From Mobula hypostoma (taxonomy: Eukaryota): a stretch of 64,000 nucleotides of DNA. Within the stretch, counting starts at the first letter, position 1, and every line of letters begins with the position of its first letter. This document shows positions 2,135 through 56,677 of this stretch, piece after piece. The notes under the pieces are model-generated. The model made no database searches and was not told the DNA's origin. It saw only the letters and a list, made by a program, of their open reading frames with translations. The translations under genes were made by a program, and so were the position numbers. The DNA lies in assembly GCF_963921235.1 (NCBI RefSeq), contig NC_086097.1, positions 49,044,001 through 49,108,000 on the forward strand, given 5' to 3'.

Positions 2135-2727
2135 GTGAGTCACAAACAGGTACTATTTTTGAATTTGCCAACAAGGGAGATTAAGTATGAAAGACGCAGA
2201 TGACTGTTGTTTATTTTTATGGTCCATTAAGGAAAATCCAATCAGGTCAAACCAAATACTTGATCAGCAAGACTGACCCTATTATCTTTTCTAATAATCG
2301 AAATTGCTTTACCTTTAAATTTTCTTCTGTCATTTCTTCACAAGAAAGGACTAAAAGATTTGAATTTGGTATGAATTTGGAAATTTTAGCAGAATCAGGA
2401 TATACTCTTCTCAAAGTACATATCCAAGAATGTTTTAAATGTAAAATAAGTTTCTGCTCTGAAGTTTGTAAGTTACGGAAGTCTGCCACTCTGTGGGTAA
2501 AAAAACCTCTCCCTCATCTTCTTCTCTAATCTTTCCATTAAATTATTTTAAATCTACATATGCTTCCTAGTTTTTATGTTAAGGGAAACAGATCCTTTCT
2601 ATTCCCCTTGTCTAGTTCTCTTATGGTTCTATACAACTCTCCCCTTAGTCTCCTGTGTTCTAAAAAATTACACTGGAGTGCTCTTTTCAGTTACCTGATG
2701 AGGTAACCATGGCCTCTGACCAGGAGC

Positions 2728-2788
2728 AGATGTCATCAGGTGGTGCCTAACCTTTATAGAGTGTTTCGATCCTTAACCACGACACTCT
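2728..2788 (-). ncRNA. Candidate non-circularly permuted hammerhead ribozyme in the HERO-like 3' end
   Basis: Minus strand reads AGAGUGU-C-GUGGU uaa GGAUC-GAA-ACACUCU (13 nt) ACCAC-CUGAUGA-CAUCU. Stem III 7 bp, stem I 5 bp, stem II 4 pairs after a C-C opposition. Confidence 0.7.
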
Positions 2789-5131
2789 CCAGTTGGTGGG
2801 TCAGCAGTAGTGGCCAAGTCACTGCCCATCTGCTCCTGACTTCCAGAAAGAGGCTTTCTGCTTCCTCTCTCATCCTGCGAGCTGCTTGGTTTTTGCTCTT
2901 TTCATCAAGGCCCAGCACAGACAGCCACCTCCATGCTGACCTTGCAGGGTACCCTCTATATCCTATCTCCATGGGGAATAGCCATGCCTCCATCCTTTGT
3001 CCCTGCACTCCCGGACTAAGGACTCGTATTTCAGGGCCTTCCTCTCGTGAGCCTCCTTGCATTCTTCCTCCCATGATACTGAGAGCTCCAGCGGATGATT
3101 TTCTTGTCTTTGGTGGACCACAATACGATGTCTGGTTGAAGTGTGGTTTGCACTACCTCTGGAAACTGCAGCTTCCTCCCCATGTTGACCCTCATCTCCC
3201 ATGATTTGGCAGTTTGCAGCAGACTGGATTTGGGCCTTTTTCATATGACTGATGGGGCCTTCTCCTTGATGAAAATGACTGCCTTGTTTACCTCTCTGCC
3301 AGCTGATTTCTTTTTACAGCTCTCCCACTCCAGTGTGTTAGCAAGGGACAGCAGCAAGGGACCTCGTCGCGGCACCACCTGTACAGTCCTTCTGTTAAAG
3401 TTGTTTTGCATCCTGACAGTATGTGTGCCAGTGAACCCTGCTGACCACAAAGCTTGCATTTAGGGTCTTCTTCTCAGCCCCCATGCGTCCTCTTGTGATG
3501 GTGTAGGGAGGGTGCCATACACAGACCGCAGGAGGAAAGAAATGCGGCAGGGCTCCACTCTCCAAAGCTCTGTGCTTGGGAAGATCCCATTTTGTCCAGG
3601 CACCCTATGACCCCAACTTCACTTCCTTTGATACCCACCTTCTGTCCTCATAGTTCCGTACCTCTGCGTGGACCATGTCTCGCCTATCCTATGCCTTTGG
3701 AATGGTGCCGAGCTGAGGCCTTGCCATCCCAGGCATGGGTTGCCAATTATGTCTCTCAATGCAGGGACCTCACTGCCTGGTCTATGGCCGAGTTGGTGGC
3801 CCACTTTCAACCCGATCTTGTTGGAACTCCCACTTGGTTTATTAGCTTGTTATCGTAGCTCCTCACTGTTAACACAACTCTACATTTTGCCACCTTAAAC
3901 TCCTCCACTAACAATGACAACGGGAGCTGTAGCTGGCCTGATCTTATGTAAAGCCCCACTGAACAAAAACTTTGGGGGAGTCCCCAGCCACCTCCGCAGG
4001 TGCTTGATGACTTTCCTCTCGATGCCTTCTACAGTGGTCATGGGGAACTTGTACACTGGGAAAAACTAGAGCAGCCTTGGTAGAAGATCATGTTGGTAGA
4101 GCTATGTTTTAAATTTACCAGGGAGACTGACTTTGTCGATCTTTTTCAGCCACTCTTCATTCTGCTTTACAGAGTCAGTGATGTTGGTGCTGTCCGTTAT
4201 TGCTGCATTAAAGTGCTTTCCAAGACATTCTACTGGGTTGTCCTCTATAGAAGGAATGACTTCTCCCTGTACTTGAAGACTGATCTGACTATTAATCTTG
4301 CCCTTTTTGATCACCATGTTTCTAGACTTCCTGGCCTTGAAGGCCTTCCTAGCCCCAATAGCTAGCTTGTCCAGGGTTTCCAATACCCATCTTGCTTGGA
4401 CATGGGTTAGAGTGGTTACCGTGATGTCATCCATGAACCCTGTATTGCAGGTTGGTGAATGCTGGGCTCCAACACTCGGTCTCGGGTTACACCTGCTGCT
4501 GCTGATATGAGGAGGTTCATACCCATGACAAACAAGATGGGGGAGATGGTACAGCCGGTTGGAATCCCTTTTTGGAGGTCTTGCCAGCTGGTTATAAAGT
4601 GAGCTGAAGAGAAGCATAGCTTGATTCCTACTAGGTAGCTGGTGATCATGTCTTGCGTGATTGGTGGGATAAGGTAGTGGTCCAGGCCAGCTGGATGAGG
4701 ACTTGTGGAACTGGTCCGTAGGCGTTGGCTGGGCCTAACCAGACAACTGACTGTTAGGTCTCCTTTCTTCTGTCTGGCCTCGTGGATCAATTAGCTGATT
4801 ATGGAAGTGTGTTCAAGGCACCCAGAAACACCCGCGGTGCCACCTTTCTGGGTGGATACAGTGGTTCTCCATTAAGTAAGAGGTCAGCCTTTTCACAGGC
4901 ACCGAGAAGAATATCTTGCACTCCATGCTAAGGAGGGAGATTGTCCTAACAGGGTGATTGTAGAGGAATTTTCGTCCTTGTGGACATAGCATCCTTCAGC
5001 CATTTTCCAGCTTGGTGGGATAGAGTATTACTCCAAATTTTCCTCATTATCTTTCACAACCTTGTAGTGTATAACACTTGGTTCTGGGGTGGCAGATGAC
5101 TTAGCATTCTCTCTTGATGATATCCTGGGCC

Positions 5132-6581
5132 TCATGCCACTTTTTGAAAAAGGAGGGAGAGAGAAACCGGGGAATTATAGACCGGTTAGCCTAACGTCGG
5201 TGGTGGGGAAACTGCTGGAGTCAGTTATCAAAGATGTGATAACAGCACATTTGGAAAGCGGTGAAATCATTGGACAAAGTCAACATGGATTTGTGAAAGG
5301 AAAATCATGTCTGACGAATCTCATAGAATTTTTTGAGGATGTAACTAGTAGAGTGGATAGGGGAGAACCAGTGGATGTGGTATATTTGGATTTTCAGCTT
5401 TTGACAAGGTCCCACACAGGAGATTAGTGTGCAAACTTAAAGCACACGGTATTGGGGGTAAGGTATTGGTGTGGGTGGAGAATTGGTTAGCAGACAGGAA
5501 GCAAAGAGTGGGAATAAACGGGACCTTTTCAGAATGGCAGGCGGTGACTAGTGGGGTACCGCAAGGCTCAGTGCTGGGACCTCGGTTGTTTACAATATAT
5601 ATTAATGACTTGGATGAGGGAATTAAATGCAGCATCTCCAAGTTTGCGGATGACACGAAGCTGGGCGGCAGTGTTAGCTGTGAGGAGGATGCTAAGAGGA
5701 TGCAGGGTGACTTGGATAGGTTGGGTGAGTGGGCAAGTTCATGGCAGATGCAATTTAATGTGGATAAATGTGAAGTTATCCACTTTGGTGGCAAAAATAG
5801 GAAAACAGATTATTATCTGAACGGTGGCCGATTAGGAAAAGGGGAGGTGCAACGAGACCTGGGTGTCATTATACACCAGTCATTGAAAGTGGGCATGCAG
5901 GTACAGCAGGTGGTGAAAAAGGCAAATGGTATGCTGGCATTTATAGCGAGAGGATTCGAGTACAGGAGCAGGGAGGTACTACTGCAGTTGTACAAGGCCT
6001 TGGTGAGACCACACCTGGAGTATTGTGTGCAGTTTTGGTCCCCTAATCTGAGGAAAGACATCCTTGCCATAGAGGCAGTACAAAGAAGGTTCACCAGATT
6101 GATTCCTGGGATGGCAGGACTTTCATATGAAGAAAGACTGGATGAACTAGGCTTGTACTCGTTGGAATTTAGAAGATTGAGGGGGGATCTGATTGAAACG
6201 TATAAAATCCTAAAGGGATTGGACAGGCTAGATGCAGGAAGATTGTTCCTGATGTTGGGGAAGTCCAGAACGAGGGGTCACAGTTTGAGGATAAAGGGGA
6301 AGCCTTTTAGGACTGAGATTAGGAAAAACTTCTTCACACAGAGAGTGGTGAATCTGTGGAATTCTCTGCCACAGGAAACAGTTGAGGCCGGTTCATTGGC
6401 TATTTTTAAGAGGGAATTAGATATGGCCCTTGTGGCTACGGGGATCAGGGGGTATGGAGGGAAGGCTGGTGTAGGGTTCTGAGTTGGATGATCAGCCATG
6501 ATCATAATAAATGGCGGTGCAGGCTTGAAGGGCCGAATGGCCTACTCCTGTACCTATTTTCTATGTTTCTATGTTTCTATG
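5132..6581 (+). mobile_element. 5'-truncated young CR1 LINE inserted in the HERO-like element
   Basis: RT with GVPQGSVLGP, KFADDTK and RPHLEYCVQFW; (TTTCTATG)n tail at about 6558-6581. Confidence 0.95.
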
Positions 6582-7545
6582 GGCTGTTCCACCTTCAGTT
6601 CAGTTGCTGGGATTCTTGATTGGTGGACTTTTGGATTGAACTCTAGTCCCTGATTCCTACAGGGATCGTTGTGTGATTCCCACAAAAATTCTTCCATCTC
6701 CTGCTTTGGGCTGGCTAGGGTGCCAGATTTCCACTGGCTAAGAAGAGCCGTGGTGAACCTGAATGGGTTTTTAAACAAACTGTGCTCTCCTTCTCTCTTT
6801 CTCCCTTCTTCACTTTTGCAGCTGCTCCACCCTCCTGAGCTTGTGCAGCCGTTGCTACGACTTGCTGGCTAGAACTTTGACACCTTTTTCGTCAAGTGGA
6901 CTGATTTTGAATTGTTGTTCAAGGCCTTTATCTCTCTTCTCAGGTGGCGAATTTCCCTTTCCCTCCTGTTTGGTTGCCATCATGGTTTAAGATCCCCTTT
7001 ACTCTCCTTTAGGCCGAACGGCTTTTTAGCAAAGTTGAACACAACAGCTGTGAGGGAGTAGATTTTCTTGTAGACAGGTCCTACCAATGTCACTTCCAAG
7101 ATGCAATCAGGTCGTCATCAAACTGCTTCCAAGATACATTGTCTGATGATCTAGGCCATCTGATCCTCTCTTTCCTTGATGAATGGACTAGGGTGTCAGA
7201 GGGGTCACTCAGCTGATCTCTTCTTTTCAACTGGGGCAGCTCAGATGTGGAGAGGTCTTCAACTCTGTGGGTGCTTCCTGGCTGAAGATCTCTCCGCACC
7301 TGAGCTGCTCCATGCCAAAGAAGAGTTCTCCATCGTCTCACCGGATGCTGAGTCTGTGCGCCGCACTGGAGTTGCCTTCGTTCCACAGCTGGACCTCCTT
7401 CGGTGTATCTTGAGGCCTTTGATGTTTCTGCACATTTTGCCGCAATGACACTTTACAATGAATGCCTTCCTGGTCAGTGTTGTTTGCTTGAGCCTTCTCA
7501 TGATCATATTTCCAGTCCTGGCCATTGCTGTTACATTCATCCCAT

Positions 7546-52372: not shown

Positions 52373-53234
52373 AGCAACACACACAAAATGCCGGTGGAAC
52401 GCAGCAGGCCAGGCAGCATCTATAGGAAGAAGCACAGTCGATGTTTCAGGCCTTACTGAAGTCCATGTAGACAATATCCACTGCCTTCCCTTCATCCACT
52501 TTCCTGGTAACCTCCTCGAAAAACTCCAATAGATTGGTCAAACATGACCTACCACGCACAAAGCCATGTTGACTCTCCCTAATAAGTCCCTGTCTATCCT
52601 AATGCTTGTAGATTCTGTCTCTTAGTACTCCCTCCAATAACTTACCTACTACCGACGTTAAACTTACTGGCCTATAATTTCCCAGATTACTTTTCGATCC
52701 TTTTTTAAACAACGGAACAACATGAGCCACTCTCCAATCCTCCGGCACCTCACCTGTAAACTGCGACATTTTAAATATTTCTGCCAGGGCCCCCGCAATT
52801 TCAACACTAGTCTCCTTCAAGGTCCGAGGGAACACCCTGTCAGGTCCCGGGGATTTATCCACTTTAATTTTCCTCAAGACAGCAAGGACCTCCTCCTTTT
52901 TGATCTGTACAATTTCCATGATCTCACTACTTGTTTCCCTTAATTCCATAGACTTCATGCCAGTTTTCCTTAGTAAATACAGACGCAAAAAACCTATTTA
53001 AGATCTCCCCCATTTCCTTTGGTTCCGCACATAGCCGACCACTCTGATCTTCAAGAGGACCAATTTTATCCCTTACAATCCTTTTGCTCTTAATATACCT
53101 GTAAAAGCTCTTTGGATTATCCTTCACTTTGACTGCCAAGGCAACCTCATGTCTTCTTTTAGCCCTCCTGATTTCTTTAAGTATTTTCTTGCACTTCTTA
53201 TACTCCTCAAGCACCTTATTTACTCCCTGCTTCC

Positions 53235-54304
53235 GCTGTGTACATACATCTATTTGATGCTTCTCGACACATCTTCAGTGATGTTGCTGGAATCATCGGG
53301 TGTTTCGGGTCTTTCAATATCATACAACCTCCGCCAGGTGACCCAGCCGGGGCTGATCAGACCCAGCTTGTGTCCAGATGGCTAGCTACTTATGACTCCA
53401 TGGCTCCCCTCTTTTGAGCCACAGCCATCTTGAGGCCCTCTCTGCTGCATCGGTGGTACTGCGGATGGCTCTCCTCTTCCTCTCTCCCTCGATGCCCAAA
53501 ATGCTGAAGGCTCTAACTAAAGAACGGGCTACGAATCCCCTACAACCAACCTCCACTGGGAGACACCTCGCTCTCCATCCGCCTGCTGACAGTTGCTGAC
53601 CAGTCCTGCGTACTTGGAGAGCTTCCTTTCAAAGGCCTCCTCCAAGCTATCTTCCCATGGGACTGTCAGCTCCAGCAGCACCACTTGCTTAGTCGACTCA
53701 GACACTAGGACAATGTCTGGTCGCGGGGTGGTGGCTGCGATATGGTTGGGGAACTTCAGCTGCCCTTCGAGGTCCACCAACAGCTGCCAGTCCCTTGCAG
53801 AGGTCAGAATGCCTGCAGATATTCTTTTGGCAGGTATTGGCTGCTCCCCAGCTCTGACAAAGGCAATGGTCTGCTTGGAGGGTCGGGACCACTTCGCCCA
53901 CTCAACTCCTGTGCTGACGGCTTCAGCGATGGTCTTCAGGACCTGATCATGCCTCCACCTGTTACCGTCCCTCACCAAGTGCCCTTGCACAGCCGCTGAG
54001 GATGTGCTCCAGGGTTCCTCTCTTGGAGCACAGTGGGCACGCAGATGACTCTGCCTTGCCCCATGTGTGCAGGTTTGATGGGCTTGGAAGCACATCGTAC
54101 ACTGCCTGGATGAGAAATTGGATGCGGTGCGGTTCGGCTTTCCAAAGATCAGCCCAGGTCACTTTCCTCTCAACTGCATTCTCCCATCTTGTCCAAGCTC
54201 CCTGTTGGTTCATTCCCACTGCCCTGCAGGCTCTCATCTCCTCCACTACTGCCCTCACCTCCTCCTGAACTAGACGACGCCTTTCCTTCCCTCTGGTGTC
54301 CATT
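53235..54304 (-). mobile_element. 5'-truncated HERO-like retrotransposon (CCHC plus restriction-like endonuclease plus 3' UTR)
   Basis: CPLCSKRGTLEHILSGC, RHDQVL and RPDIVLVS...LLELTVPWE...KLSKY; TAG at 53388-53386; ttcc at both junctions. Confidence 0.9.
53266..53329 (-). ncRNA. Candidate non-circularly permuted hammerhead ribozyme in the HERO-like 3' UTR
   Basis: Minus strand reads GGUUGU-A-UGAUAUUG aaa GACCC-GAA-ACACCC (11 nt) CAACAUCA-CUGAAGA-UGUGUC. Stem III 5/6, stem I 7/8, stem II imperfect. Confidence 0.65.
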
Positions 54305-56677
54305 TTTCCTATACATGTCATACAACTCCCTCTTCTTCTTTATCAGAGTTGCAGTATCCCTTGAGAACCAAGGTTCCTTATTCCTATTCTCTTTGCCTTT
54401 AATCCTGACAGGAACATACAAATTCTGCACTCTCAAAATTTCTCCTTTGAAGGCTTCCCACCTACTGATCACATCTTTGCCAGAGAACAACCTGTCCCAA
54501 TCCATGCTTTTTAGATCCTTTCTCATTTCTTCAAATTTGGCCTTCTTCCAGTTCAGAACCTCAACCCTAGGACCAGATCTATCCTTGTCCATGATCAAGT
54601 TGAAACTAATGGTGTTATGATCACTGGAACCAAAGTGCTCCCCTACACAGACTTCTGTCACTTGTCCTAACTCGTTTCCTAACAGGAGATCCAATATTGC
54701 ATCCCCTCTAGTTGGTCCCTCTATATATTGATTTAGAAAACTTTCTTGAACACATTTTACAAACTCTAAATTATCTAGACCCCTAACAGTATGGGAGTCC
54801 CAATCAATGAGAGAAACTAACTTAGATTAAAGTTACAGAGAGGGTAGGAAGGGAAGTAGCACAAGGATAGGTGTTGCCTCACCTGTGCTTGCATAATAAA
54901 ATATTATTTGAAGGTGAATGGCTGGTTACAGATGGAATGGTAGTCTTGAGACGCATGGAACAGTCTCTTTGAAATGCTGAAAGGAAAGGGAAACGAAGAT
55001 ATGTCTGATTGTCGAGTTTCATTGCAGGTAGCGGAAACTGCAGAGTGATGCATTGTATGTAAAGGCTGATGGGCTGGTAGAAAGAAATACTATACTTCCC
55101 GTGCCCAACAGGGATGAGAGCAAATGTAAGGAAAAGATAGTTTTATCACAAAAAAAAATAGATTAAACCAAGAAATTTGGTAACCTACTTGCTCCTTGGA
55201 GCACTTGAAGTTTCCTGAGGAACTTCAGTATGAACTTTAGCAAATGCCGATAAGTTCTCCATCACAACTACCTTCATGTGAAAACCGATGACAAGGACCT
55301 TAGAAATTTACAGGCAAACTGCAGACAGGTCCCATCAACTTATACAACAGGAACCAATTTGTTATCTGATTCAGGATCCAAGTTAGAGCTAATTATATTT
55401 TAGTGAAAGTTACAATTAAGAGTCAAGAAAGCTGTGTAACATAATTAGCAGTGGTAACCAGTAGGATACTTATAGTTAATGGTACTTCATCATGGTTTGT
55501 AACATTTCTTACAGTCTTACATGTCTCAGAGACATTCCATTGTAGGTCATTTATTAGAGGTTTAAAACTTTGACAACTCCTTCTGATAACAGGCTATCTT
55601 TTAGGATAGCATAAAGATGCCAGACTCTTCTCTCAATATGGTGGCAATCTCTGTAGTTATTGGATCTTGTCCAAGAACTAGAATGCCTAGAATTAGATCT
55701 TCAGTTTAGCTGAAATGAATCTGTAATTTGTTCAGTTGTTATTTGGAGATATGAACTTTCTCCATCATTTATGTTTGAAACCTACACCAGAAATTCTATT
55801 CAGGTTCCAGCAAAACCTTCTCACATATTTTTCAAATAATAGATGCACATACTATAACTTTGCTGAATTGTTTCTGTTAGCTATGGAGTTTGATAATGCT
55901 TAGCTGGAGAACAGGCCACCTGCAAAAAGCTGTTACAAATGAAGTTAGCAGAACAGAGGAGTTATGAGATGTGGATTATATAGATGGTATATAGCAGGTA
56001 CATGAAAACAGATGGTAGACATTAAATTGTTGCTAAAAAATATCTCACTCTCCTTGAGGAATACTTTAGATGTTGATATTGGTTCTTGATCCTAGGTTTA
56101 ACTAAGTGAGAATGCCAATTCAGAGTAAGGTCACTCAACTAACATCTGTGCTGTGCTGTCACTGATCACAGCTGGAAAGCCAGTATCCCATAAGTCCTCT
56201 GCTTTGTGACATATGTTAACTCTCAGTCCAGGAATAACTCTATTTTAAAATAGCCTTCCTTCTTTTCAGATTCCTCTTCTCTCTGTAACCACAGGAGATA
56301 ATCTTCCTTTGTACCTGTCAGACTATGTTTGGGTAGAACCTCTTTAGATTGGGTAAAATAGCCAAGACTCAAGAGAGCAGCAGAACTCAGAACTCAAGTT
56401 TATTGAAACTAACTGACATTACATCTAATGTATAAAACACTGCAAATATTATAAGGACATGATTAGAAAAAGCAAAGGAATTAAATTATATAAGACTACA
56501 AGATATCTCTGATAAATGGCCTACAATAGAATGTCTCCTAGCAACAAACTTGGAGTTCAAGAGCTAACTTTAGGAGCTTACAACTAATTACATTTTGAAA
56601 TGGGCAGTTATCAAGCTACACACATCAAGGTTGCTGGTGAATGCAGCAGGCCAGGCAGCATCTCTAGGAAGAGGTAC

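What the first reader, a model, noticed from the sequence alone, without database searches (positions are those of the whole stretch)
53266..53347. A second, divergent HERO-like family carries the same permuted hammerhead with different stem sequences
Seen: GGUUGU-A-UGAUAUUG [aaa] GACCC-GAA-ACACCC [gaugauuccag] CAACAUCA-CUGAAGA-UGUGUC, starting about 55 nt after the ORF stop. Strand order, the 3-nt linker, the linker length (11 versus 13 nt) and the pyrimidine-C opposition next to the core match the copy at 2728-2788. Stem I is entirely different (UGAUAUUG/CAACAUCA versus GUGGU/ACCAC), and core changes fall only at the tolerant positions N7 (A versus U) and H17 (A versus C). The extra helix is also kept (GCUGGGUCA at 53339-53347 with UGAUUCCAGC, one bulge). 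Inference: two families with covarying stems make chance unlikely and point to a clade-wide structured 3' module.
Basis: partly seen in the sequence, partly recalled or inferred. Interest (0 to 1): 0.88.

Follow-up and report, generated by a model that had tools for sequence, protein, structure and literature searches.

The report
Rewired hammerhead ribozyme in retrotransposon tail
The flagged stretch is a decayed copy of a roughly 120-base, six-helix RNA fold with a complete hammerhead-ribozyme core, found right after the protein-coding region of almost every HERO-like jumping gene examined, and its strand wiring matches no hammerhead layout found in print.

Summary
The window copy (minus strand, 53263-53377) lies in the 3' UTR of a 5'-truncated HERO-like non-LTR retrotransposon (53236-54305).

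A covariance model finds the same domain after the ORF in 54 of 55 suitable related loci (37-87% protein identity). All 63 hits are on the ORF strand.

The hammerhead core, the site-GAAA-CUGANGA order, stems I and III and the cut site 53323|53322 hold. This order is the published "type-SGC" hammerhead (Eckert et al. 2023, PMC10085705).

The true stem II partner lies upstream (GGGUC, 53340-53344; 89% paired). The strand after CUGANGA instead closes the domain with a strand beside the stop codon (helix V). A hairpin (P0) and a helix IV complete six covarying helices: 90.9% paired against 59% shuffled and about 40% slid.

So the CUGANGA block is split, which fits none of the six described permutations.

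Cleavage is inferred, not shown. Contig data gave no verdict. A test for copies starting at the cut site was inconclusive.

Head-to-tail arrays are common (9 of 36).

The parts
53236..54305 (-). 5'-truncated copy of the young HERO-like family ('fam2'), inserted in a CR1/L2-like LINE
   Evidence: 1072 nt at 96.7% identity to a full-length genomic copy, L141. The 3' end ...GUAUGUACACAG is shared by the 30 copies aligned, whose flanks diverge after it. The flanking ORF pieces look like CR1/L2 by eye.
53386..53388 (-). Stop codon (TAG) of the element's ORF
   Evidence: The same frame is open for 504 aa in L020 and L005.
53369..53377 (-). Helix V, 5' strand (CUGGACACA)
   Evidence: Pairs with 53263-53271. 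Helix V is 87.6% and 94.4% paired in its two segments across 61 distinct homologues, and all 11 pairs show changes on both sides. RNAalifold predicts it independently.
53346..53367 (-). Hairpin P0, with the apical palindrome UGAUCA. This copy has lost one G of the stem.
   Evidence: 90.3% paired, 7 of 7 pairs covary.
53340..53344 (-). Stem II, 5' strand (GGGUC)
   Evidence: Pairs with GACCC at 53307-53311. 89.2% paired, 5 of 5 pairs covary, and this helix was not part of the covariance model's structure. The other window family has the flipped pair GACCC/GGAUC.
53333..53338 (-). Helix IV, 5' strand (CCUGGC here; CCUGGA in most copies)
   Evidence: Pairs with 53286-53291. 95.2% paired. It corresponds to the helix that joins stems I and II in published type-SGC hammerheads.
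53324..53329 (-). Stem III, 5' strand (GGUUGU, positions 16.6-16.1)
   Evidence: Pairs with 53298-53303. 95.1% paired. U16.1 is present in 58 of the 59 rows that have a letter there.
53322..53323 (-). A17 (53323) and the predicted scissile bond between 53323 and 53322
   Evidence: Position by analogy with the hammerhead. H17 is C in 27, U in 20, A in 12 and G in 0 of 59 homologues. Cleavage was not observed.
53316..53322 (-). Stem I, 5' strand (UGAUAUU; UGAUGUU in 19 of 30 copies)
   Evidence: Pairs with 53279-53285. 86.7% paired, 6 of 7 pairs covary, and this helix was not in the covariance model's structure.
53312..53315 (-). Linker L1 (GAAA) between stem I and stem II
   Evidence: Mostly 2-5 nt and A-rich across homologues. 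Type-SGC hammerheads have about 3 nt here.
53307..53311 (-). Stem II, 3' strand (GACCC)
Evidence: See the stem II 5' strand.
53303..53306 (-). Core G12 A13 A14 A15.1
   Evidence: G12 in 55 of 60, A13 in 60 of 60, A14 in 60 of 60, A15.1 in 59 of 60.
53298..53303 (-). Stem III, 3' strand (ACACCC)
   Evidence: The U.C mismatch at 16.4/15.4 is family-wide.
53292..53297 (-). Loop L2 (GAUGAU). With GGA at 53330-53332 it looks like a kink-turn internal loop.
   Evidence: L2 reads NNNGAN in 51 of 61 rows, the opposite link ends in GA in 43 of 61, and both hold in 41 of 61. The kink-turn consensus is recalled, not tested.
53286..53291 (-). Helix IV, 3' strand (UCCAGC here; UCCAGG in most copies)
53279..53285 (-). 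Stem I, 3' strand (AACAUCA)
53272..53278 (-). Core C3 U4 G5 A6 N7 G8 A9 (CUGAAGA)
   Evidence: C3 in 57 of 61, U4 in 61, G5 in 60, A6 in 61, G8 in 60, A9 in 60. N7 is free: U 44, A 8, C 6, G 3.
53263..53271 (-). Helix V, 3' strand (UGUGUCGAG here; UGUGUCCAG in 27 of the 30 copies).
53236..53262 (-). 3' tail, with a small hairpin and the element's 3' terminus
2720..2840 (-). The same domain in the older family ('fam1'): Va 2827-2836, P0 2804-2825, II 2798-2802/2768-2772, IV 2792-2796/2747-2751, III 2782-2787/2759-2764, C17 2781, I 2776-2780/2740-2744, CUGAUGA 2733-2739, Vb 2723-2732
   Evidence: Covariance-model hit of 99.5 bits. Coordinates. At least 1422 candidate copies in the genome.

Best explanation
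The stretch is a mutated, dead copy of the 3'-UTR RNA domain of HERO-like (restriction-like-endonuclease) non-LTR retrotransposons.

What the domain is (shown by covariation). It is a closed, pseudoknotted fold of about 110-125 nt built around a complete hammerhead core. Its order, 5' to 3', is: helix V strand a, hairpin P0, stem II 5' strand, helix IV strand, stem III 5' strand, U-H (cut site), stem I 5' strand, a short linker, stem II 3' strand, GAAA, stem III 3' strand, a GA-rich loop, helix IV strand, stem I 3' strand, CUGANGA, helix V strand b.

How it relates to known forms. This is the published type-SGC hammerhead with one further change. The stem II strand is no longer joined to A9. 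Helix V and hairpin P0 sit at that point, which should make a four-way junction of core, II, P0 and V. The RNA enters and leaves the domain through helix V, next to the stop codon.

What I infer, not shown.
- In active copies the domain self-cleaves after H17 (53323|53322 in this copy).
- The two products stay held together by helices V, II, IV and III, about 26 bp in all.
- Because elements often lie head to tail, the domain of an upstream copy would trim co-transcripts about 90 nt ahead of the next copy's 5' end. It may also let unit-length RNAs re-ligate.
- The same fold makes up nearly the whole 3' UTR, so it probably also serves as the handle that the element's reverse transcriptase recognises.
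For: Distribution.
- The covariance model gives 63 hits at E<=0.01 in 380,577 nt searched on both strands. All lie on the ORF strand.
- 54 of 55 loci that reach the ORF end and have at least 200 nt downstream carry a hit. The hit starts -4 to +359 nt after the protein match, and protein identity spans 37-87%. The 55th locus (L128) has a descriptor hit.
- A further 65 hits were found in 62 loci of the window's own genome.

Structure.
- 42 pairs in 6 helices are 90.9% paired. Shuffled columns give 59.2% (0 of 500 shuffles reach the observed value) and slid partners give 36-41%.
- The covariation score is 0.719, against 0.189 shuffled and about 0.10 slid. 39 of 42 pairs show changes on both sides (the same picture on a plain MAFFT alignment).
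- RNAalifold finds V, P0, IV and III on its own.
- A single sequence folds at -51 kcal/mol, z = -3.76.
- Stems I and II were not in the model's structure and are still 86.7% and 89.2% paired.

Core.
- 11 core positions are each kept in 55-61 of about 60 rows.
- Variation is free only at N7 (all four bases) and H17 (C, U or A; never G in 59 rows). These are the two tolerant hammerhead positions.
- 52 of 63 hits have an intact core. All 13 hits that have at least 900 nt of sequence upstream and an upstream open frame of 400 aa or more are intact. The 8 broken-core hits with that much upstream sequence have frames of 194 aa or less. Five of the breaks are G12 to A at a CpG.

Published relatives. 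[quoted passage not shown]

Context.
- 9 of 36 domains with at least 900 nt downstream are followed 380-800 nt later by the N-terminus of another HERO-like ORF.
- A truncated copy directly abuts a full-length copy in the window's genome.
- Helix V starts -15 to +27 nt from the stop codon in 9 loci.
Against: - No cleavage was observed.
- The four public runs laid on the stretch are assembled contigs. Several contigs bridge the predicted cut, including one from an RNA library, and no ends could be read.
- The backbone break between A9 and position 10.1 is unknown in any characterised hammerhead. Eckert et al. assumed that block cannot be interrupted, so the fold could be inactive.
- Every genomic copy carries the roughly 90 nt that lie 3' of the cut. 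The RNA that is reverse-transcribed is therefore uncut or re-joined. Cleavage is not needed to make the 3' end and would harm a linear template.
- About 26 bp hold the two products together, which fits poorly with a simple release function.
- The sequences that built the model were picked with the core as a filter. Core invariance is therefore partly by construction, although the model search tolerated the 9 variants with a substituted core that it found.
- Copies starting exactly at the cut are not clearly enriched.
- No Rfam family matches.
Confidence: 0.6

Rival explanations
1. The domain descends from a hammerhead but no longer cuts. It is a rigid pseudoknotted 3'-UTR handle that the element's reverse transcriptase binds to start target-primed reverse transcription, as R2 proteins bind their structured 3' UTRs. 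The core nucleotides are kept because the protein or the tertiary fold needs them.
For: - The domain is almost the whole 3' UTR. It starts 0-27 nt after the stop codon, and only 23-62 nt of tail follow it.
- All copies keep the part that lies 3' of the would-be cut.
- The A9-to-10.1 backbone is interrupted, which no tested hammerhead has.
- R2 of a bird binds a pseudoknotted 3' UTR RNA (PMC12222951, abstract only, from the listing).
Against: - The conservation pattern is exactly that of a catalytic hammerhead: free N7, and H17 never G in 59 rows. A protein handle has no known reason to forbid G at position 17 or to keep C3, G5, G8 and G12 across elements that share as little as 37% protein identity.
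- The nearest published relatives with the same unusual strand order do cleave.
Confidence: 0.3
2. One reading: a contiguous three-strand type-SGC hammerhead, in which the strand right after CUGANGA (UGUGUC) forms stem II with GACCC and an extra helix pairs GCUGGGUCA with the linker.
For: - In the fam2-like subgroup, GUGUC can pair with GACCC after a bulged U, with one U.C mismatch. The bulged U resembles the published HRIMA-1 type-SGC form.
- Register +1 shows a weak residual signal: 54.5% paired against 45.5% shuffled, with 1 of 500 shuffles as high.
Against: - Register 0 gives 42.8% paired, no better than shuffled.
- Register +1 lies within the range of the slid controls, 26-60%.
- The same tail strand pairs with the strand next to the stop codon in helix V, whose two segments are 87.6% and 94.4% paired and covary at all 11 pairs. 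GACCC pairs with the upstream GGGUC at 89.2%.
- In many families the tail has no complementarity to the stem II strand at all ('alt' column of 0 or 1).
Confidence: 0.04
3. Chance resemblance, or only a simple terminal hairpin (ACAUC...GAUGU), in an otherwise unstructured 3' UTR.
For: CUGANGA and GAAA are short motifs. The hairpin can be drawn in fam2-type sequences.
Against: - The hairpin is paired in 45.1% of cells, against 40.5% shuffled and 24-45% slid.
- There were no descriptor or covariance-model hits on the opposite strand of about 380 kb.
- Six helices covary.
Confidence: 0.01

Closest known systems
Type-SGC hammerhead ribozymes (HRIMA-1 motif and variants; Eckert, Friedrich, Weinberg and Weinberg 2023, PMC10085705)
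   Same: - The order cut-site block, then GAAA block, then CUGANGA.
- A roughly 3-nt linker from the far end of stem I to the far end of stem II.
- A helix that joins the linker before stem I's 3' strand to the strand just after stem II's 5' strand (helix IV here).
- Something inserted between A9 and stem II (one U in the published form).
- All hammerhead core nucleotides.
Read in sections 13, 15 and 18 and supplementary alignment part 18.
   Different: - In the published form the stem II 5' strand follows CUGAUGA-U directly. Here it lies about 80 nt upstream, and the strand after CUGANGA forms a new closing helix V, with hairpin P0 between V and II. In effect this is a circular permutation of type-SGC, opened at A9/10.1.
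- The published examples are environmental (IMG/M) sequences found next to hairpin ribozymes. Eukaryotic genomes and retrotransposons are not mentioned apart from one reference.
- Here the host is an autonomous animal retrotransposon.
- The published forms were shown to cleave. These were not tested.
Classic hammerheads of retroelements: minimal type I hammerheads of Penelope-like elements and retrozymes (Cervera and De la Pena 2014, 2016, 2020: PMC4209133, PMC4918200, PMC7229834; listings and abstracts only)
   Same: A hammerhead core carried by a retroelement, near a unit boundary of tandem or repeated copies. For retrozymes, a link to unit-length RNA processing and circular RNAs.
   Different: - Those are type I or type III three-way junctions without pseudoknotted cores, and Rfam models find them. 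None matched here.
- Those elements are Penelope-like or non-autonomous, not REL-endonuclease LINEs.
HDV-like and twister-variant ribozymes of non-LTR retrotransposons (R2, L1Tc, Schistosoma elements; PMC3774820, PMC3185411, PMC8501958; abstracts only)
   Same: A self-cleaving RNA in an autonomous or LINE-dependent non-LTR element, cutting near its own 5' edge so that the ribozyme stays on the downstream RNA. It is used to free the element from a co-transcript.
   Different: A different ribozyme class. Those sit at the element's 5' end. This one sits in the 3' UTR and could act as a 5' processor only for the next copy in an array.
Structured 3' UTRs of R2-type elements bound by the element's protein (PMC12222951, abstract only)
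   Same: A pseudoknotted 3' UTR RNA in a REL-endonuclease retrotransposon, placed where target-primed reverse transcription must start.
   Different: No ribozyme core is reported there. Protein binding was not tested here.

Membership tests
Hammerhead ribozyme | Core C3 U4 G5 A6 N7 G8 A9 | tested here: met
   CUGAAGA at 53272-53278. Across 61 distinct homologues: C3 57, U4 61, G5 60, A6 61, G8 60, A9 60; N7 takes any base.
Hammerhead ribozyme | G12 A13 A14 followed by the A15.1-U16.1 pair | tested here: met
   GAAA at 53303-53306 and U at 53324. G12 in 55 of 60, A13 and A14 in 60 of 60, A15.1 in 59 of 60, U16.1 in 58 of 59.
Hammerhead ribozyme | Cleavage-site nucleotide H17 is never G | tested here: met
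   C 27, U 20, A 12, G 0 of 59. The seed sequences were chosen with this rule, but the model search did not enforce it.
Hammerhead ribozyme | Three covarying helices I, II and III abut the core in the right places | tested here: met
   I 86.7%, II 89.2%, III 95.1% paired, and 16 of the 18 pairs show changes on both sides.
Hammerhead ribozyme | Stem II strand continuous with A9 (at most 1-2 inserted nucleotides in known alignments, per PMC10085705 section 13) | tested here: not met
   The strand after A9 forms helix V. The stem II 5' strand is upstream of the cut-site block.
Hammerhead ribozyme | Site-specific self-cleavage after H17 | not testable with these tools
   Only contig-level public data were available. 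The test on 5'-truncated copies was inconclusive.
Hammerhead ribozyme | Match to the curated Rfam hammerhead models | tested here: not met
   No hit at the gathering score in the window or in 10 related loci, and none at E<=10 around both sites. This is expected for a pseudoknotted permutation.
Type-SGC hammerhead (Eckert et al. 2023) | Block order S (site), G (GAAA), C (CUGANGA) | tested here: met
Type-SGC hammerhead (Eckert et al. 2023) | Block C uninterrupted: stem I 3' strand, CUGANGA and stem II 5' strand in one run | tested here: not met
   The stem II 5' strand precedes block S.
Type-SGC hammerhead (Eckert et al. 2023) | Short linker from stem I to stem II, and a helix tying the other sides of stems I and II together | tested here: met
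   Linker mostly 2-5 nt. Helix IV is 95.2% paired.
HERO group of REL-endonuclease non-LTR retrotransposons | RT followed by a Cys-His motif and a PD..D/E REL-endonuclease motif, with no zinc-finger motif upstream of the RT (PMC2790886, passages read) | tested here: inconclusive
   - C-X2-C-X7-H-X4-C (the paper gives X8) and RPD...ELTVPWE...K were read by eye in the 504-aa C-terminal frame.
- Pfam gives only a weak zf-RVT match. Homologues carry PF00078.
- The frame is 60% identical to a Takifugu 'reverse transcriptase' and 66% to a Tetraodon 'polyprotein'. That these records are HEROFr and HEROTn/Zebulon is recalled, not checked.
- The N-terminal part and a phylogeny were not examined.
Kink-turn | Three-nucleotide bulge followed by tandem sheared G.A pairs between two helices (consensus recalled) | tested here: inconclusive
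   Between III and IV: NNNGAN on one strand in 51 of 61, a link ending in GA on the other in 43 of 61, both in 41 of 61. There is no structural test.

The most novel reading that the evidence does not exclude
This is a seventh natural hammerhead layout, in which the CUGANGA block itself is split by a four-way junction. It works as a reversible cut-and-rejoin device. Co-transcripts of head-to-tail HERO arrays are cut at successive domains. The two ends of each unit-length RNA carry complementary halves of the domain (helices V, II, IV and III) and re-anneal, and the ribozyme or a cellular ligase seals them into a circular, protein-coding LINE RNA. Reverse transcription of that circle, together with RNA pairing through the palindromic P0 loops, would produce the tandem arrays.
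Probability: 0.15. Interest if true: 0.95.

Novelty: new variant of a known kind. Interest (0 to 1): 0.85.

Why it matters
- It would add a hammerhead topology that the only published survey of non-circular permutations excluded by assumption. That would show the catalytic core tolerates a break, or a helical junction, between A9 and stem II.
- It would place a hammerhead-type ribozyme in the 3' UTR of an autonomous LINE-like clade found in fishes, lancelets and bivalves. Until now, ribozymes of such elements have been 5' HDV-like or twister forms.
- It gives about 60 natural sequences with six covarying helices. That is enough for immediate cleavage assays, for structure work on how non-circular permutations fold (a question Eckert et al. 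left open), and for tests of how REL-endonuclease retrotransposons define and recognise their RNA ends.
- The closed domain of about 120 nt may also be useful as an engineering part.

Tried and rejected
- **Rfam.** No match at the gathering score (window; 10 related loci), and none at E<=10 around either site.
Tested in two registers and rejected.
- **Terminal hairpin rival.** Rejected.
- **Public reads.** All 22 runs offered are kept as assembled contigs and most are only guessed to be RNA. I laid X1, X2, X19 and X11. Contigs bridge the predicted cut, the table of molecule ends is empty, and there are no joints. This gives no verdict on cleavage or circles.
- **Copies that begin exactly at the cut (pattern searches of the window's genome).**
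  - Older family: 8 hits at the cut site, 2 of them true truncations (L150, L154). At +10 there were 3 hits and 0 true. At -10 there were 8 hits and 0 true.
  - Young family: 6 hits at the cut site, 1 true (L146). At +10 there were 2 hits and 1 true (L169).
  - In total, 3 true truncations at the cut against 1-2 at the four control positions. This is inconclusive.
- **P0 loop pairing with the 3' tail** (UUGGCCA/UGGCCAA in the older family). Not conserved in relatives, judged by eye, and dropped.
- **Descriptor scans.** The relaxed scan gave one likely false hit (L138, AT-rich), which the model did not confirm.
- **Literature.** These searches found nothing about a hammerhead in HERO-type elements: 'hammerhead'+'HERO'+'non-LTR', 'type-SGC' (only the 2023 paper), 'Zebulon'+'non-LTR'+'Tetraodon', 'HERO clade'/'non-LTR retrotransposon'/'ribozyme', 'non-circular permutation'+'hammerhead' (8 papers, 6 listed), and 'hammerhead'/'LINE'/'restriction-like endonuclease'/'self-cleaving'. 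Subscription journals are not covered by these searches.
- **Earlier notes of this scan.** None by words or by sequence for this motif.
Full report
**What is at the coordinates.**
- The stretch lies 7-9 nt downstream of the stop codon (TAG, 53386-53388) of an ORF that carries a Cys-His motif and a PD...E...K restriction-like endonuclease motif.
- The copy is 5'-truncated. 53236-54305 aligns at 96.7% to a full-length genomic copy.
- It sits inside a CR1/L2-like LINE, judged from the flanking ORF pieces read by eye.
- The family ('fam2') is young. 39 further matches were scored out of 265 candidates, at 95-97% identity.
- All 30 copies aligned end at ...GUAUGUACACAG and diverge after it.
- A second, older family ('fam1', window 2720-2840 on the minus strand) has at least 1422 candidates at 87-91% identity.
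- The C-terminal 504 aa of fam2 is open in two copies. It is 80-87% identical to predicted proteins of several teleosts, 66% to a Tetraodon 'polyprotein' and 60% to a Takifugu 'reverse transcriptase'.
- I call the element HERO-like on that basis and on the motif layout given in PMC2790886 (passages). That those two records are the HERO or Zebulon type elements is recalled, not checked.

**The strand order is already published.**
- The order cut site, then GAAA, then CUGANGA cannot be reached by circular permutation of a classic hammerhead.
- Eckert, Friedrich, Weinberg and Weinberg (2023, PMC10085705) described exactly this order as the 'type-SGC' hammerhead.
- They reported a linker of about three nucleotides between stems I and II, a helix tying the other sides of stems I and II together, and cleavage in vitro at the expected site (sections 13, 15 and 18).
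- Their supplementary alignment also shows a single U between CUGAUGA and stem II.
- Apart from one RefSeq bacterial record for a different permutation, all their accessions are IMG/M environmental records. Retrotransposons appear only in a reference.
- 'Type-SGC' occurs in no other paper of the library.

**The module is clade-wide.**
- I fetched 80 metagenome contigs that encode relatives of the ORF, at 37-87% identity.
- A descriptor for core plus stems found only the two reported sites in both strands of the window.
- In the 80 contigs it found 23 sites with the strict rules and 47 sites in 45 contigs with rules asking only for the core and stems I and III.
- Every hit was on the ORF strand. 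None was on the other strand, over 316,577 nt.
- One relaxed hit (L138) is probably false.

- Reading the 3' UTRs that the strict descriptor missed showed the error. The strand before GAAA pairs with a strand upstream of the cut-site block, not with the strand after CUGANGA.
  - fam2: GGGUC/GACCC. fam1: GACCC/GGGUC in most copies aligned, GACCC/GGAUC in the window copy.
  - Other families: GACUC/GAGUC, GCUCC/GGAGC, GUCAAG/UUUGAC, GGCGC/GCGCC.
- The strand directly after CUGANGA pairs over 8-15 bp with a strand next to the stop codon (helix V).
  - fam2: CUGGACACA/UGUGUCCAG. fam1: GGAGCAGAUG/CAUCUGCUCC.
  - Others: CCAUCGACG/CGUCGAUGG, CCACUAAUG/CAUUAGUGG.
- A hairpin of 23-26 nt (P0) lies between helix V and stem II.
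- The spacer after stem II pairs with the linker before stem I's 3' strand (helix IV): CCUGGA/UCCAGG, CCAAC/GUUGG, CCACUU/AAGUGG.

**Covariation on a plain MAFFT alignment of 29 domains.**
- The 42 pairs are 89.1% paired. Shuffled columns give 61.1% and slid partners 37-41%.
- 38 pairs show changes on both sides.
- RNAalifold predicts V, P0, IV and III without being told.

**Covariance model.**
- I built the model from the nested helices only.
- It gave 63 hits at E<=0.01 in the window plus the 80 contigs, all on the ORF strand.
- It gave 65 hits in 62 loci of the window's own genome.
- On the 63-row alignment the full structure is 90.9% paired, against 59.2% shuffled and 36-41% slid. The covariation score is 0.719 against 0.189.
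- Stems I (86.7%) and II (89.2%) were not in the model's structure.
- 54 of the 55 contigs that reach the ORF end and have at least 200 nt beyond it carry a hit that starts -4 to +359 nt after the protein match. The last one has a descriptor hit.
- One natural domain folds at -51 kcal/mol, z = -3.76.

**What the fold means.**
- The linker, the core and stems I and III are as in type-SGC.
- The difference is that the stem II 5' strand is not attached to A9. Between A9 and position 10.1 lie helix V, through which the RNA enters and leaves the domain, and hairpin P0.
- Formally this is type-SGC circularly permuted and opened at A9/10.1. In block terms the order is C''-S-G-C'.
- Eckert et al. assumed the blocks cannot be interrupted, so none of their six types covers it.
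- I infer a four-way junction of core, II, P0 and V, in which stem II can still stack on the A9.G12 pair.
- The internal loop between III and IV has NNNGAN opposite a link ending in GA in 41 of 61 rows. This fits a kink-turn (consensus recalled). A kink there would let helix IV fold back to the far ends of stems I and II.
- Neither inference was tested structurally.

**Is it a ribozyme?**
- Across 61 distinct rows, each of the 11 core positions is kept in 55-61 rows.
- N7 takes all four bases, and H17 is C, U or A but never G. That is the hammerhead's own tolerance pattern.
- 52 of 63 hits have an intact core.
- The nine hits with substitutions are mostly decayed copies: five are G12 to A at a CpG, and two related loci have C3 to U. 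One more hit has an internal deletion, and one is cut by the contig end.
- All 13 hits that have at least 900 nt of sequence upstream and an upstream open frame of 400 aa or more have intact cores. The 8 broken-core hits with that much upstream sequence have frames of 194 aa or less.
- Caveat: the seed sequences were picked with the core as a filter, so invariance is partly built in.

**Evidence against cleavage, or missing.**
- No cleavage was seen. All public runs on offer are contigs, and contigs bridge the site.
- Every genomic copy keeps the part that lies 3' of the cut.
- The counts of copies beginning exactly at the cut are inconclusive: 3 true truncations at the cut against 1-2 at four control positions.
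- Cleavage therefore remains an inference, which I put at about 0.6. The main rival is an inert hammerhead-derived protein handle, at about 0.3.

**Likely role.**
- Helix V begins -15 to +27 nt from the stop codon in nine loci with long ORFs. A terminating ribosome would therefore open the domain (inference).
- After a cut, helices V, II, IV and III, about 26 bp in all, would still hold the two RNAs together. This favours re-ligation or a nicked complex over release (inference from hammerhead biochemistry, recalled).
- Head-to-tail arrays are frequent.
  - 9 of 36 domains with at least 900 nt downstream are followed 380-800 nt later by another element's N-terminus.
  - L062 and L064 begin inside an upstream copy's domain.
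  - L086 holds two elements in tandem that are only 71% identical.
  - In the window's genome an 822-nt truncated copy abuts a full-length one.
- The most economical reading is that the domain of the upstream copy trims co-transcripts ahead of the next copy, as 5' HDV-like ribozymes do for R2. The same fold would also serve as the 3' handle for reverse transcription.
- A circular-RNA cycle is the boldest reading the data allow.

**The window copy itself is a fossil.** It has mismatches in helix V (G53375.G53265), in helix IV (C53333 and C53286) and in stem I (A53318.C53283), and a one-base deletion in P0.

**Novelty.** The library searches listed under Tried and rejected found no report of a hammerhead in HERO-type or other REL-endonuclease LINEs, and none of a hammerhead with a detached stem II strand. 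I therefore class it as a new variant of a known kind, resting on strong comparative evidence and awaiting a bench test.

Noticed in passing
window 53353-53359 (minus strand); P0 apex in A3 rows: The tip of hairpin P0 carries a 6-nt palindrome in 34 of 46 distinct sequences (UGAUCA 24, UGGCCA 8, GACGUC 2), against 18.6% of shuffled tips. The change from AU to GC in the middle keeps the self-complementarity. That pattern is what a loop-loop (kissing) RNA dimerisation site would show.
   Followed up: partly
L020:1-1512 (the window's genome); proteins P0002-P0011: The young family's C-terminal 504 aa is 80-87% identical to predicted proteins of distant teleosts such as flatfish, conger, pipefish, catfish and anchovy. 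Earlier notes of this scan call the host genome a ray. If that is right, this identity suggests recent horizontal transfer among fishes.
   Followed up: no
L086:1018-3532 and 4748-7254; L062; L064; L103; L132; L134; L142: Head-to-tail pairs of HERO-like elements are common. One pair (L086) is only 71% identical, so the arrays are not simple duplications. Template jumping of the reverse transcriptase, or insertion next to existing copies, could explain this.
   Followed up: partly
L142 (reverse complement 4039-4220); L067, L069, L072 and L086 downstream of the tail: The element's 5' region holds repeats of a motif like CAGUGACAACCAGGAAAGACUGG. It starts right after the upstream copy's 3' end in arrays, across families with about 50% protein identity.
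   Followed up: no
L143, L144, L145, L148 (the window's genome): At least one further, decayed HERO-like family in the same genome carries the same domain, with its own helix sequences.
   Followed up: no
L146 (G000:C9:93980436 region): A fragment of the young family, about 100 nt long, begins exactly at the predicted cut site and has an internal duplication in its tail. It is a single case and proves nothing on its own.
   Followed up: partly
window 52927-53235 and 54306-54826 (minus strand): The host of the insertion is a CR1/L2-like LINE whose ORF is split by the HERO-like copy.
   Followed up: no
window 5361-6482 (plus strand): A 373-aa open frame with reverse-transcriptase-like motifs of a CR1/L2-type LINE interrupts the region upstream of the older HERO-like copy.
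   Followed up: no
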